Assembly: GCA_046536795.1 (NCBI GenBank)
Contig: JAWDMB010000001.1
Coordinates: 186,900 to 250,899 of the forward strand
DNA: 64,000 bases
Origin: Candidatus Micrarchaeota archaeon
GTDB lineage: Archaea; Micrarchaeota; Micrarchaeia; Micrarchaeales; CABMGC01
Direction: 5' to 3'
Position 1 is the first letter of the stretch. Each line of letters starts with the position of its first letter. Shown in pieces: positions 17,924 through 20,467 of this stretch. The notes beneath the pieces are model-generated. The model made no database searches and was not told where the DNA came from. It saw only the letters and a program-made list of their open reading frames with translations. Made by a program: the position numbers and the translations under genes.

Positions 17924-20467
17924 TTACTCACTCTGCATCTCTTTTATAACCTCTTTTACTGGGTCTATACCATCGCCACCATATATTGTTTGAAGCAGCT
18001 TTCCATGAACATCTCTAACTGTAAGATCATAATCAACATAGTAATCTTGTAATGCATTATTTATTCTTCTATAAAGATAACCGCTTCTAGCGGTAAGCAG
18101 CGCTTTGTATACCTCCGAACCTCTTGAACCGATTGCATGCATATAGAAGTCTATAGGTGTTAAGCCGTGGAAGTAGTTTGATACTACAAAACCTCTTGCT
18201 GGAGGTGTTATATCATTTGGCTTTATATGTGGCAAAACTCTATTTGTTGCATATCCACGTTTTATTCTGCCACCAGATAGGGTTGCTTGCTGGCCCAGCA
18301 GCATATTCATCTGCACAACGTTCTTTTCACTACCTCTTGAACCTGCAAAAGCCATAAGTACAACGTCATTATCCTTTTCGCTGTGTGTTACAACATACTT
18401 TGCCGCAGCTGCTCTAGCAAGATCAAGCTCTGCGATTATCATTCTCTCTAAGGATTGCTTAAGCGTATAGCCGACAAGCGGCTCGAGCGTTTTCTTTTTG
18501 TAGCTCTCTATAAGCTCGTTTACCTTCTTAAATGTTCTTTCAATTATTGCAAGCCTCTCCCTTTCTACATCTTCATTTATCATATATTCTTTTATTCCGA
18601 CTGTTATACCAGCAAGCGTAACGAATGCGTCTGCAAGTCTTGATGATCTGTTAAGAAAATCGCTTACTGCTTCCATGCCAAAATCTGCTGCAATCTTTGC
18701 GAGTAGCCTGCTTCCTCTGCCATAAGTTTCTTTTGTAAGAACACCTTCTACAAGTTTGCCATTTACAATCTTTACTGTTTGGCCTCTTACCTTTTGTTCA
18801 AAATTAAGTTTTGGTGGAAGGAGCATCGAGAATATATCTTTTCCAGCATATAAGCCATCTTTTCCAGGTTTTGGAAGTTCATATATACCAGCAAGCGCAA
18901 GCAGATAGCTAGCTTCTTTTTTTGTAAGCCTTGTTGTGTCTTCTGTTAGCAAATACATTCCCGTTACGCCGTCTTCATTGTTGGTAATTATAGCATCGCC
19001 CGTTCTTGGCGAGAATATTTGGTTGTTTACCCACATCAAATACTTTGCCTCTGCCTGTGCTTCTAATGTTTGTGGAACGTGCAAATTCATTTCGTCTCCG
19101 TCGAAGTCTGCACCATATGGGTGTGTTGCATCGAAATTGAGCCTAAACGTTTTTCCAGGCAATACCCTTACCTTATGGGCCATTATATTTATTCTGTGTA
19201 ATGAAGGCTGCCTGTTAAATATTACAATATCGCCATCGATAAGCTGCCTCTCTAGTATATCGCCAGGTGCTATACTTTTAATAATTTCTTCCCTTGCACT
19301 TTCTACTATTCTCTTCCTCTTGCCGTCTTTTGTTATTATGTCAACAACCATCGGATATTCTGTTCTTGAAAGCCACTCTTTGGCTTTTTCCATATTCCAT
19401 TCTGTTACATAGAATGGAACTGTGAGCTTCTTTGCAACCTCGTAAGGGACACCAACTTCATCGATGTCGATGTAAGGGTCTACAGATATTACAGTTCTAG
19501 CCGAGAAATTAACCCTTTTACCACTTAAGTTATATCTAAACCTACCCTCCTTTCCCTTTAATCTTTGTGCAAGCGTCTTAAGTGCTCTTCCACTTCTGTG
19601 CCTTGCTGGTGGTATACCAGGTGATTCGTTGTTGAAATAGGTTGTAACGTGATACTGAAGAAGTTCCCACAGATCATCTATAATTATTTGTGGAGCGCCA
19701 GCGTTTATGTTTTGTTCAAGCCTCTGGTTTATACGCATTATCTCTACTAGCTTATGTGTTAAATCATCTTCGCTCCTTTCTCCAGATTCTAGCGTTATTG
19801 AAGGCCTTACATTTACTGGCGGTACAAGAAGGTTTGTAAGCACAAGCCATTCGGGCCTGCTTGTTGTAGGATCTATGCCGAGAAGCCTCAGATCATCGTC
19901 GCTTATCTTGCTGAGCCTATCTCTTATCTCGTCAGGCTTAATCCTTCTATCTCCAATATAAAAGAATGTTGGGGGTTCAAACTTTATTTTTTGCTGAACA
20001 GCACCGCAGTGTGGACACTTCTTTATGCTTCTAAGTTTCTTTAATATTTGATTTTTCTCATTTATCTTATCAATGTCTGTTGCTTCTTCGCCTTCACTTA
20101 CAACAATTTGTCTCATTGTTTCCTTTAGATCAGATATCTGCTCCTCATTAAGCAAAACCCTACCACATTCCTGGCATGTTGACTGAAGGAGCATATATAT
20201 TATTTTAGCAAATTCAGAATGTATAACTGGTCTTACAAGCTCTATGTGGCCAAAGTGGCCAGGGCACACCTTGGCTCTTGCACCGCATGTTTTGCAAACA
20301 AGACCAGGGTCGATAACCCCAAGCCTCTGATCTACAAGGCCGCCATCAATTGGGTAGCCGTCTTCATTGTATGTATCTGGCACGGTAAGCTTTGCCACGC
20401 TAAGCTTTCTTATCTGCTCCGGTGAAAGTATACCAAACTTTATATAATCTATAGATTCAGCTTGCAT
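17924..20467 (-). CDS. rpoA1: RNA polymerase subunit A' (Rpo1N)
   Basis: [41 protein letters not shown]. Confidence 0.97.
   Translation of the reverse strand: [847 protein letters not shown]

What the first reader, a model, noticed from the sequence alone, without database searches (positions are those of the whole stretch)
19085..19120. RNA polymerase catalytic loop reads YGADFDGD instead of the near-invariant YNADFDGD
Seen: RpoA1 encodes [13 protein letters not shown]. The codon at 19112-19114 is GGT, two changes from AAT, so a single miscall is unlikely. Established: this Asn (E. coli beta' N458, yeast Rpb1 N479) contacts the NTP ribose and contributes to NTP/dNTP discrimination. It is lost mainly in specialised enzymes such as plant Pol IV/V. 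Inference: this looks like the cell's housekeeping polymerase (intact rpoH-B''-B'-A'-A'' operon), so substrate selection or fidelity may differ.
Basis: partly seen in the sequence, partly recalled or inferred. Interest (0 to 1): 0.8.

Follow-up and report, generated by a model that had tools for sequence, protein, structure and literature searches.

The report
RNA polymerase active-site Asn-to-Gly variant
The only RNA polymerase of this tiny archaeon really does carry glycine where textbooks show an invariant asparagine next to the catalytic aspartates, and the same swap turns out to recur in many small-genome archaea and to be fixed in one whole order of ultra-small bacteria, so the "universal" residue has a natural, working alternative.

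Summary
**Observation: confirmed.** rpoA1 (17924..20467, minus strand) encodes ...[13 protein letters not shown]. The codon GGT lies at 19112-19114. G452 aligns to yeast Rpb1 N479.

**It is real and selected.**
- rpoA1 is single-copy in a 94%-complete genome and sits in an intact rpoH-B''-B'-A'-A'' operon.
- All genus members examined carry Gly, encoded by GGT, GGA or GGC.
- dN/dS within the genus is 0.03-0.05.

**It is not unique.**
- A scan of 185,579 species genomes found 82 with Y-G-ADFDGD[E/Q]M. By record title and tree position, about 58 of the 64 archaeal hits are DPANN.
- In samples, Gly occurs in 16 of 370 Micrarchaeota, 6 of 127 genomes of a Pacearchaeota-type order and 5 of 33 genomes of a euryarchaeal order.
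- In one Patescibacteria order, 19 of 19 genomes carry Gly.
- Only Asn or Gly was seen. The one-step neighbours were never seen where tested.
- The Micrarchaeota tree needs at least 7 Asn/Gly switches.

**Likely effect.** The main 2'-OH selector Arg (R419) and the trigger-loop Gln and His are intact. The published N-to-S mutants lose less than 5-fold selectivity, so a large fidelity change is not implied.

**New point.** The genus also changed two NTP-contacting trigger-loop residues: Leu to Ile (unique to the genus) and Arg to Ser/Gly.

**Verdict.** This is a new natural variant of a known enzyme and is worth biochemical testing.

The parts
17924..20467 (-). rpoA1 (Rpo1N / subunit A'), 847 aa, the only copy in the genome
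   Evidence: ORF list and translation. Pfam Rpb1 domains 1-5 with E-values from 8e-95 to 5e-14. Single match in the own genome, which is 93.87% complete.
19112..19114 (-). GGT codon = Gly452, at the position of the Asn of NADFDGD (yeast Rpb1 N479)
   Evidence: Residue mapping by ungapped alignment to solved structures.
19085..19123 (-). Catalytic loop [13 protein letters not shown]. The metal-A Asp triad is intact.
19211..19213 (-). AGG codon = Arg419 in NRQPSLHR. It is equivalent to Rpb1 R446 / beta' R425, the main 2'-OH selector, and it is conserved.
   Evidence: Translation, alignment offset, and presence in 111 of 112 loci examined (the one miss, L056, is truncated). The role is taken from passages of PMC7862312.
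16874..17923 (-). rpoA2 (Rpo1C / subunit A''), 349 aa, which carries the trigger loop
   Evidence: Pfam Rpb1 domain 5, E = 4e-47. Alignment to Sulfolobus, Pyrococcus and Thermococcus Rpo1C chains.
17801..17848 (-). Trigger-loop NTP-interacting segment [16 protein letters not shown]. Gln31 and His38 are kept. Ile34 sits at the L1081/M932 position and Ser35 at the N1082/R933 position.
   Evidence: Translation. Ungapped alignment to Sulfolobus GEPGTQMTLRTFHFAG with a constant offset of 1047 to yeast Rpb1. Comparison with relatives.
20474..22303 (-). rpoB' (C-terminal half of the second-largest subunit)
   Evidence: Pfam Rpb2 domains 4-7.
22315..23784 (-). rpoB'' (N-terminal half of the second-largest subunit)
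   Evidence: Pfam Rpb2 domains 1-3.
23788..24039 (-). rpoH (Rpb5 C-terminal domain), first gene of the operon
   Evidence: Pfam PF01191, E = 7.5e-24.

Best explanation
Gly452 is a genuine, inherited and selectively maintained state of the active site of this Micrarchaeota genus's only, housekeeping, RNA polymerase. The site behaves as a two-state position: natural enzymes carry either Asn or Gly, and nothing else was seen.

Proposed mechanism (inferred). Removing the Asn side chain removes its hydrogen bond to the ribose hydroxyls of the incoming NTP. That bond is partly water-mediated in Pol II. The cavity left by Gly is probably filled by ordered water that keeps the network.

Sugar selection is still carried mainly by the conserved Arg419 (R446/R425 equivalent) and by the trigger-loop Gln31. 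Catalysis is still carried by the intact DFDGD triad and the trigger-loop His38.

The expected consequence is modest: somewhat weaker NTP binding or slower addition, and a selectivity loss of a few fold at most. A polymerase with grossly altered substrate choice is not expected.

In this genus the change is embedded in a wider remodelling of the NTP pocket. Trigger-loop Leu became Ile and Arg became Ser/Gly. Three of the six classical NTP-contact residues therefore differ from relatives.
For: **Shown: the gene is single-copy, intact and under selection.**
- Single copy, intact operon.
- dN/dS is 0.03-0.05, with dS from 0.35 to saturation within the genus.
- Gly with three synonymous codons occurs in 6 of 6 genus loci and in a seventh genus genome, G004. 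It also occurs in the 7 closest 90%-identity clusters.

**Shown: Gly recurs widely.**
- 82 species genomes of 185,579 carry Y-G-ADFDGD[E/Q]M, and all 82 are true catalytic loops.
- 16 of 370 motif-bearing genomes in a Micrarchaeota sample of 401 have a codon at the site that does not start with A. All 16 read GGN, and they lie in 8 genera.
- 6 of 127 genomes in a Pacearchaeota-type order.
- 5 of 33 genomes in a euryarchaeal order.
- 19 of 19 genomes in a Patescibacteria order.
- At least 7 Asn/Gly switches among 43 Micrarchaeota tips.

**Shown: only two states.**
- No B-first codon other than GGN in 401 genomes.
- No Ser(AGY), Thr, Ile or Arg codon in 201 genomes of the order.
- Only AAY or GGN in the fully listed samples of 127, 33 and 19 genomes.
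- 110 Asn and 9 Gly among 120 clusters.

**Shown: the rest of the pocket.**
- The Arg is conserved in 111 of 112 loci.
- No other conserved A' column co-changes in more than 3 of 8 Gly lineages.
- The genus changed only 7 of 341 conserved A' columns and 3 of 94 conserved A'' columns. Three of these 10 are NTP contacts; a post-hoc hypergeometric test gives P = 1.7e-4.

**From papers (passages read).**
- Arg425 is the major selector, and N458S/N479S cost less than 5-fold selectivity (PMC7862312).
- N479S yeast is viable, and N479, Q1078 and N1082 are 'functionally interdependent' (PMC3325174).
- Water W2 bridges the ATP 2'-OH to the Asn479 and Gln1078 amides (PMC7619134).
Against: - No biochemistry exists for Asn-to-Gly in any multisubunit RNAP that I could find. 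The size and even the direction of the kinetic effect are extrapolated from the Ser mutants.
- The water-substitution idea is inference. I had no coordinates with which to test it.
- N479S is the slowest Pol II mutant in vitro in PMC3325174, so the effect of losing the side chain need not be small.
- In yeast, L1081I alone is listed as inviable. The genus's Ile34 therefore argues that its pocket really works differently.
- The trigger-loop coupling is not general. The 6 Gly genomes of the Pacearchaeota-type order have the same trigger-loop Asn as their Asn-type neighbours in the listing. Several Micrarchaeota Gly lineages and the Patescibacteria clade keep Arg.
- Lys codons (AAR) were not separately excluded in the Micrarchaeota samples.
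- The sampled genomes are relatives and are not independent.
Confidence: 0.6

Rival explanations
1. Adaptive re-tuning. The Gly, together in this genus with trigger-loop Ile34 and Ser/Gly35, materially changes substrate selection, fidelity or speed. Examples would be relaxed recognition of the ribose 3'-OH/2'-OH, or insensitivity to a nucleoside-analogue inhibitor. On this view the change is favoured by selection in these symbionts.
For: - Only Gly, a two-step change from AAY, is ever seen. The one-step neighbours are absent where tested. This argues for a specific fitness peak rather than relaxed constraint.
- The genus changed 3 of the 6 NTP-contact residues but only 10 of 435 conserved columns.
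- Two other old Gly clades also have a small residue at the N1082/R933 position: L045/L082 have Gly, and 5 of 5 genomes of the euryarchaeal Gly clade have Ser(TCN), against Asn in 24 of their 27 Asn-type relatives.
- Ile at the L1081 position is unique to the genus: 11 of 11 genus loci, 0 of 73 other loci and 0 of 103 proteins.
- Pol IV/V, which are substituted at this position, incorporate dNTPs more readily (passage of PMC5737373).
Against: - Most Gly lineages have unchanged trigger loops.
- Ser at the trigger-loop position also occurs with Asn in the loop: G619-G621 and 7 Asn-type genomes read by eye.
- The Arg that dominates sugar selection is intact.
- Species of one genus differ between Asn and Gly in 5 genera. 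This looks like frequent, low-cost switching.
- No ecological or genomic correlate was found.
Confidence: 0.2
2. Drift plus compensation. Asn-to-Gly is slightly deleterious. It is fixed by drift in small, bottlenecked populations of host-dependent cells, and in older Gly lineages it is partly compensated by trigger-loop changes.
For: - Strong enrichment in DPANN archaea and Patescibacteria. By record title and tree position, about 58 of the 64 archaeal hits are DPANN, and all 18 bacterial hits are one Patescibacteria-type clade.
- The site is polymorphic within genera.
- The older, fixed Gly clades (own genus, L045/L082, euryarchaeal clade) are the ones with trigger-loop changes.
- Epistasis among N479, Q1078 and N1082 in yeast (passages of PMC3325174).
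Against: - Drift should also fix the one-step neighbours Ser, Asp, Thr and Lys, and none was seen.
- Gly is stably fixed across an entire bacterial order with all Gly codon families in use, and across a genus with saturated dS. A lingering deleterious state would not be expected to last that long.
- One Gly clade lies in a euryarchaeal order with genomes of 1.2-2.0 Mb.
Confidence: 0.15
3. Artefact: a sequencing or assembly error, or a chimeric bin.
For: The window comes from a metagenome-type assembly of 5 contigs. Only contigs, not raw reads, could be laid.
Against: - The codon differs from AAY at two bases.
- Seven genus genomes have Gly with three different codons.
- Independent clusters from several sources have it.
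- Four runs from four studies show no listed difference at the codon.
- Estimated contamination is 0.02%.
Confidence: 0.01
4. It is not the housekeeping enzyme but a specialised or decaying paralogue, as in plant Pol IV/V.
For: Substitution at this position is known from Pol IV/V.
Against: - There is only one rpoA1 in a 93.87%-complete genome.
- The operon is canonical.
- dN/dS is 0.03-0.05.
- Only 7 of 341 conserved A' columns are changed.
Confidence: 0.02

Closest known systems
Canonical archaeal Rpo1N/Rpo1C (solved: Pyrococcus 8cro, Thermococcus 4qiw, Sulfolobus/Saccharolobus 2waq and 2pmz)
   Same: Same domain architecture, split A'/A'' and operon. The DFDGD triad, the NRQPSLHR Arg and the trigger-loop Gln and His are the same. 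Alignments through both active-site segments are ungapped.
   Different: The structures read ...[11 protein letters not shown] and TQM-TLRT-FH. The window reads ...[11 protein letters not shown] and TQM-IISS-FH.
Laboratory mutants yeast rpb1-N479S and E. coli beta' N458S
   Same: Loss of the same Asn side chain in a housekeeping enzyme. Both mutants are viable or active. Selectivity against 2'-dNTP is reduced less than 5-fold (PMC7862312 passages). N479S lowers rNTP affinity (PMC5737373 passage).
   Different: They carry Ser, not Gly, and they are engineered, slow loss-of-function alleles (PMC3325174 passages). Ser was never seen at this site in the natural genomes sampled here. I found no report of an Asn-to-Gly mutant. 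The search for 'GADFDGD' gave 0 papers.
Plant Pol IV / Pol V largest subunits
   Same: Naturally substituted at the N479 position, and they incorporate dNTPs more readily than Pol II (PMC5737373 passage).
   Different: They are extra, specialised, non-essential paralogues with many other diverged active-site residues. Here the variant sits in the sole, otherwise conservative polymerase.
beta' of one Patescibacteria order (records titled Woykebacteria and others)
   Same: A natural housekeeping RNAP with Y-G-ADFDGD. Gly is fixed in 19 of 19 genomes with the motif, and all 4 Gly codons are used across.
   Different: The enzyme is bacterial (DQMA) and its trigger loop is canonical, TQLTMRTFH. The origin is independent, in another domain of life.

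Membership tests
Multisubunit RNA polymerase largest subunit, archaeal split form (Rpo1N/A' + Rpo1C/A'') | Rpb1 domain architecture (domains 1-5 across A' and A'') | tested here: met
   Pfam PF04997, PF00623, PF04983, PF05000 and PF04998 in A', and PF04998 in A'', all far above their cut-offs.
Multisubunit RNA polymerase largest subunit, archaeal split form (Rpo1N/A' + Rpo1C/A'') | Metal-A aspartate triad D-x-D-x-D (DFDGD) | tested here: met
   ADFDGDEMN is present and aligned to solved enzymes.
Multisubunit RNA polymerase largest subunit, archaeal split form (Rpo1N/A' + Rpo1C/A'') | Asn immediately before A-DFDGD. The motif is called 'universally conserved' in PMC13198411. It is a conserved feature, not a criterion of homology. 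| tested here: not met
   Gly452, codon GGT at 19112-19114. Membership by homology is unaffected. This is the variant feature under study.
Multisubunit RNA polymerase largest subunit, archaeal split form (Rpo1N/A' + Rpo1C/A'') | Arg of NRxPxLHR (R446/R425), the ribose 2'-OH selector | tested here: met
   Arg419. Present in 111 of 112 loci.
Multisubunit RNA polymerase largest subunit, archaeal split form (Rpo1N/A' + Rpo1C/A'') | Trigger loop with Gln (Q1078) and His (H1085) | tested here: met
   Gln31 and His38 of A''. The neighbouring L1081 and N1082 positions read Ile and Ser.
Multisubunit RNA polymerase largest subunit, archaeal split form (Rpo1N/A' + Rpo1C/A'') | Housekeeping status: single copy, in the rpoH-B''-B'-A'-A'' operon, under purifying selection | tested here: met
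Multisubunit RNA polymerase largest subunit, archaeal split form (Rpo1N/A' + Rpo1C/A'') | DNA-dependent RNA synthesis activity | not testable with these tools
   Needs enzyme reconstitution.
Specialised RNAP paralogues with degenerate active sites (Pol IV/V-like) | Exists in addition to a canonical housekeeping enzyme | tested here: not met
   Only one rpoA1 match in the own genome.
Specialised RNAP paralogues with degenerate active sites (Pol IV/V-like) | Many conserved active-site positions diverged | tested here: not met
   7 of 341 conserved A' columns and 3 of 94 conserved A'' columns are changed.

The most novel reading that the evidence does not exclude
The Asn of NADFDGD is a bistable site with two fitness peaks, Asn and Gly, separated by a valley. 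No one-step intermediate survives. The valley has been crossed again and again, mostly in small-genome symbionts: DPANN archaea, and once in Patescibacteria. In this Micrarchaeota genus the Gly state has seeded a rebuilt nucleotide pocket (Gly452 with trigger-loop Ile34 and Ser/Gly35). That pocket would read the ribose hydroxyls through water rather than through side chains. The result would be a natural cellular RNA polymerase with measurably different sugar (2'/3'-OH) selectivity, NTP affinity or sensitivity to nucleoside analogues.
Probability: 0.25. Interest if true: 0.8.

Novelty: new variant of a known kind. Interest (0 to 1): 0.6.

Why it matters
The NADFDGD loop is the textbook invariant of all cellular RNA polymerases, and the role of its Asn in choosing NTPs over dNTPs has been debated for two decades using engineered Ser mutants. 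Three points follow from the results here.

- **Nature has already run the experiment.** Whole lineages live with Gly at this site. These include a complete bacterial order and this archaeal genus.
- **The pattern is striking.** Only Asn or Gly occurs, despite the two-nucleotide distance between their codons.
- **It gives concrete things to test.** There are ready-made natural sequences, and a specific triple combination (Gly + Ile + Ser), to graft into reconstituted archaeal or E. coli enzymes. Such grafts would measure what the Asn, and the water network around the ribose, contribute.

The result also warns annotators and motif-based screens that YGADFDGD is a legitimate active site. It offers a clean case for studying fitness-valley crossing in small-population symbionts.

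Tried and rejected
1. **General coupling between loop Gly and a small residue at the trigger-loop N1082/R933 position.** Three clades suggested it. The Pacearchaeota-type order did not bear it out: its 6 Gly genomes keep Asn like their neighbours in the listing, and Asn-type genomes there vary among Asn, Arg, Ser and Asp. Several Micrarchaeota Gly lineages and the Patescibacteria clade also keep Arg. I keep it only as a genus- and clade-level observation.

2. **Compensating changes inside A'.** No conserved column co-changes in more than 3 of 8 Gly lineages, and the changes that do occur are conservative.

3. **His at position -3 (H449) as a stand-in for the Asn side chain.** It is shared by the own genus and L045/L082. 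It also occurs with Asn in L007. I had no coordinates to test the geometry, so I dropped it as evidence.

4. **Genome context.** There is a borderline TFIIS zinc-ribbon match (21.2 bits against a cut-off of 21) and a clear ribonucleotide reductase. Neither is informative about the variant.

5. **dN/dS for L017 against L019 (0.26).** This looks unreliable and was not used.

6. **P0087.** It is the single Gly sequence among the 50% representatives. It is an unnamed 1446-aa Rpb1-type protein from a 4.6-kb contig. Its origin is unknown, so it was not used.

7. **Raw-read confirmation.** This was not possible, because the runs offered are kept as contigs. Nineteen listed differences were not displayed.

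8. **Denominators.** Frequencies therefore come from samples. Lys (AAR) was not separately excluded in the Micrarchaeota samples. The rows were read by eye.

9. **Literature.** The searches were 'GADFDGD' (0 papers), 'NADFDGD'+'Patescibacteria' (0 papers) and 'NADFDGD'+'archaea'+'substitution' (9 papers, listing only, none on natural variation by title). One search was too loose to be useful. Subscription-only papers and all supplementary files were not searchable. Published RNAP alignments there could already show the variant.

10. **Structure and complex prediction** were not run. They return no coordinates or ligands that could test the water hypothesis.

Claims touching unpublished genomes: G038 (= L025, Asn-type) is one of the 22 Asn-type relatives, and it is in the samples. 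G211 is in the samples. No conclusion depends on either genome.
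Full report
**1. The observation.**

The ORF at 17924..20467 (minus strand) translates to an 847-aa protein with ...[23 protein letters not shown]. The minus-strand codons are CCA TAT GGT GCA GAC TTC GAC GGA GAC, so the Gly codon GGT is at 19114..19112.

Pfam gives Rpb1 domains 1-5 for this ORF. The flanking minus-strand ORFs are A'' (16874-17923), B' (20474-22303), B'' (22315-23784) and RpoH (23788-24039).

An ungapped alignment to solved structures has a constant offset of 426 to yeast Rpb1. 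This puts own G452 on N479 and own R419 on R446. Pyrococcus and Thermococcus Rpo1N read ...[16 protein letters not shown] at the same place.

**2. Real, single-copy, selected.**

- The genome has 759,833 bases in 5 contigs, is 93.87% complete with 0.02% contamination, and holds one rpoA1.
- In 40 relatives of the same order, 30 loci were fetched. All 6 loci of the own genus have Gly, encoded by GGT, GGT, GGT, GGA, GGT and GGC. Two other genera also have Gly (L017 with GGG, L028 with GGC). The other 22 loci have Asn.
- A seventh genus genome, G004, reads GGC.
- Pairwise dN/dS of rpoA1 within the genus is 0.031-0.048. dS runs from 0.35 to values at or beyond saturation. Gly has therefore been kept over long divergence under strong purifying selection.
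- Contigs of four public runs from four studies cover the codon with no listed difference there. Differences spaced three bases apart are listed all around it. These are contigs, 19 differences were not displayed, and one run may be the source sample.
- The 7 closest 90%-identity clusters in the 5.8-billion-protein collection also have ...D.[11 protein letters not shown].

**3. How unusual is it?**

Globally the Asn is near-invariant. Among the 150 best representatives of 50%-identity clusters I counted 146 Asn, 1 Gly, 1 Ala in an aberrant motif and 3 proteins without the motif. A 2026 paper calls -NADFDGD- 'universally conserved' (passage of PMC13198411).

Gly is nevertheless recurrent. One scan of 185,579 species genomes for TAY-GGN-GCN-GAY-TTY-GAY-GGN-GAY-SAR-ATG gave 82 loci. 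All 82 are true catalytic loops: 64 of archaeal type and 18 of bacterial type. By record title and by position in an RpoA' tree, the 64 archaeal hits divide as follows.
- About 58 are DPANN. They are 20 of Pacearchaeota type, 12 of Woesearchaeota type, 4 of Parvarchaeota type, 17 of Micrarchaeota type (6 of them the own genus), and a few others.
- 5 form one euryarchaeal clade.
- 1 is a Thermoplasmata record.

The 18 bacterial hits share [20 protein letters not shown] and have a median of 73% identity over about 500 aa. Their titles name Woykebacteria, Woesebacteria, Patescibacteria and Saccharimonadales. Several are titled 'Gammaproteobacteria' or 'Nanoarchaeia', which look mislabelled.

**4. 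Denominators.**

These come from pattern searches that print the codon.

| Group sampled | Genomes with the motif | Gly (GGN) | Other |
|---|---|---|---|
| Micrarchaeota phylum | 370 of 401 | 16, in 8 genera | no other codon starting with C, G or T |
| Own order, Ser(AGY)/Thr/Ile/Arg codons | 201 genomes searched | n/a | 0 of 201 |
| Pacearchaeota-type order | 127 of 141 | 6 (one is the Gly centre genome I chose) | 121 AAY |
| Euryarchaeal order | 33 of 34 | 5 | 28 AAY |
| Patescibacteria order | 19 of 21 | 19 (GGT, GGA, GGG) | none |

- In the Micrarchaeota sample, five of the 8 Gly genera also contain species whose codon starts with A (g18, g53, g21, g30, g94).
- Fitch parsimony on the 43 Micrarchaeota tips of the tree (22 Asn, 21 Gly) needs at least 7 changes. 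The nodes that place Gly tips beside Asn tips mostly have support of 0.9-0.99.
- That tip set holds all Gly species but only 22 Asn species, so the direction of change cannot be read from it.

The site is thus two-state, Asn or Gly, although AAY to GGN needs two base changes through Ser or Asp, neither of which was seen.

**5. The rest of the pocket.**

- The Arg of NRxPxLHR (R446/R425) is present in 111 of 112 loci, and the one miss is truncated.
- In A' no other conserved column tracks the change. The genus differs from 22 Asn-type relatives at only 7 of 341 columns that are at least 90% conserved.
- In A'' the trigger loop reads [16 protein letters not shown] (17801-17848), against Sulfolobus GEPGTQMTLRTFHFAG. 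The alignment is ungapped, with a constant offset of 1047 to yeast. Gln31 (Q1078) and His38 (H1085) are kept. Ile34 sits at L1081/M932 and Ser35 at N1082/R933.
- Of 94 conserved A'' columns the genus changed 3: L34I, R35S/G and L242I.
- Ile at that position occurs in 11 of 11 genus loci, 0 of 73 other loci and 0 of 103 other proteins with a readable trigger loop.
- Three of the 10 changed conserved columns are therefore among the six residues that the papers name as NTP contacts. A post-hoc hypergeometric test gives P = 1.7e-4.
- A small residue at the N1082/R933 position also accompanies Gly in L045/L082 (Gly) and in the euryarchaeal Gly clade. There, 5 of 5 Gly genomes have Ser(TCN), while 24 of the 27 Asn-type relatives have Asn and 3 have Ser(AGY).
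- It does not accompany Gly in the Pacearchaeota-type order, in several Micrarchaeota lineages or in the Patescibacteria clade.

**6. What the literature says.**

Only passages were read.
- PMC7862312: Arg425 is the major determinant of selection against 2'-dNTPs. N458S in E. coli and the equivalent mutant in yeast reduce selectivity less than 5-fold. N458S was among the variants that kept at least half of wild-type activity.
[quoted passage not shown] N479S/N1082S is viable. N479, Q1078 and N1082 are 'functionally interdependent'. L1081I is listed as inviable.
- PMC7619134: an ordered water bridges the ATP 2'-OH with the Asn479 and Gln1078 amides.
- I found no mention of the Gly variant. Supplements and subscription journals could not be searched.

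**7. Interpretation.**

The enzyme is a functional housekeeping RNAP in which Gly is the second permitted state of the Asn site. The most economical mechanism is that solvent fills the space of the missing side chain and keeps the ribose hydrogen-bond network. Arg419 and the trigger-loop Gln would then continue to select ribose. This is inferred, not shown.

The expected effect is modest, but it is untested for Gly.

The absence of one-step neighbours argues against mere relaxation. The concentration in small-genome, host-dependent lineages and the polymorphism within genera fit easy, repeated crossing between two peaks where drift is strong.

In this genus the additional Ile34 and Ser/Gly35 suggest a co-adapted pocket. 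This is the part most likely to carry a real functional difference.

**8. Verdict.**

- I class it as a new natural variant of a known enzyme.
- As far as my searches reach, it is not reported in the searchable literature.
- It is directly testable by grafting into reconstituted polymerases.

Noticed in passing
window 17801-17848 (minus strand), A'' trigger loop: The trigger loop of the own genus reads [12 protein letters not shown]. Ile at the L1081/M932 base-stacking position was found only in this genus (11 of 11 genus loci, 0 of 73 other loci, 0 of 103 proteins). L1081I alone is listed as inviable in yeast Pol II (PMC3325174 passage).
   Followed up: yes
L020, L027, L029, and several rows in the genome samples: Other departures from the 'universal' loop in DPANN archaea: NADYDGD (Phe to Tyr between the first two catalytic Asp) in several genomes, and NGDFDGD in L029.
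   Followed up: no
L048, L061, L071, L073, L107, L110 (trigger-loop region): Parvarchaeota-like and some other DPANN trigger loops read T[K/R]TKH. That is Lys at the position of the conserved Phe (F1084) just before the catalytic His.
   Followed up: no
L031, L037, L038, L062, L067, L070, L083, L084, L093, L111 and others: In the Pacearchaeota-type genomes the A' and A'' parts lie in one open frame of about 1090-1170 aa. The largest subunit is fused rather than split.
   Followed up: no
L042, L052, L066, L080, L081 (titled Gammaproteobacteria); L078, L098 (titled Nanoarchaeia); L084 (titled Nitrososphaerales): Record titles disagree with the sequence. The first seven carry the same Patescibacteria-type beta' loop as the Woykebacteria records. 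L084 clusters within the Pacearchaeota-type clade. The public labels are probably wrong.
   Followed up: partly
window 12231-16233 (minus strand) and 24160-25847 (plus strand): Downstream of the rpo operon come a small ORF with no family, an HTH regulator, and grpE-dnaK-dnaJ. Upstream on the other strand is a Kae1/TsaD gene followed by a Bud32/RIO-like kinase.
   Followed up: partly
P0087 (from the 50%-identity representative library): An unnamed 1446-aa Rpb1-type protein with Rpb1 domain 7 and [11 protein letters not shown], from a single 4.6-kb contig. It is possibly a non-archaeal polymerase with the same Gly variant.
   Followed up: partly
G000 contig 3 (L113, L114): The only TFIIS-type zinc ribbon in the own genome scores 21.2 bits against a cut-off of 21. 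Its match lies inside the same stretch fetched for the ribonucleotide reductase large subunit. Whether a true transcript-cleavage factor exists is unclear.
   Followed up: no
G393 and G230 (Micrarchaeota sample): Two genomes each show two catalytic-loop matches on different contigs or strands. This could mean a duplicated rpoA1 or a mixed bin.
   Followed up: no
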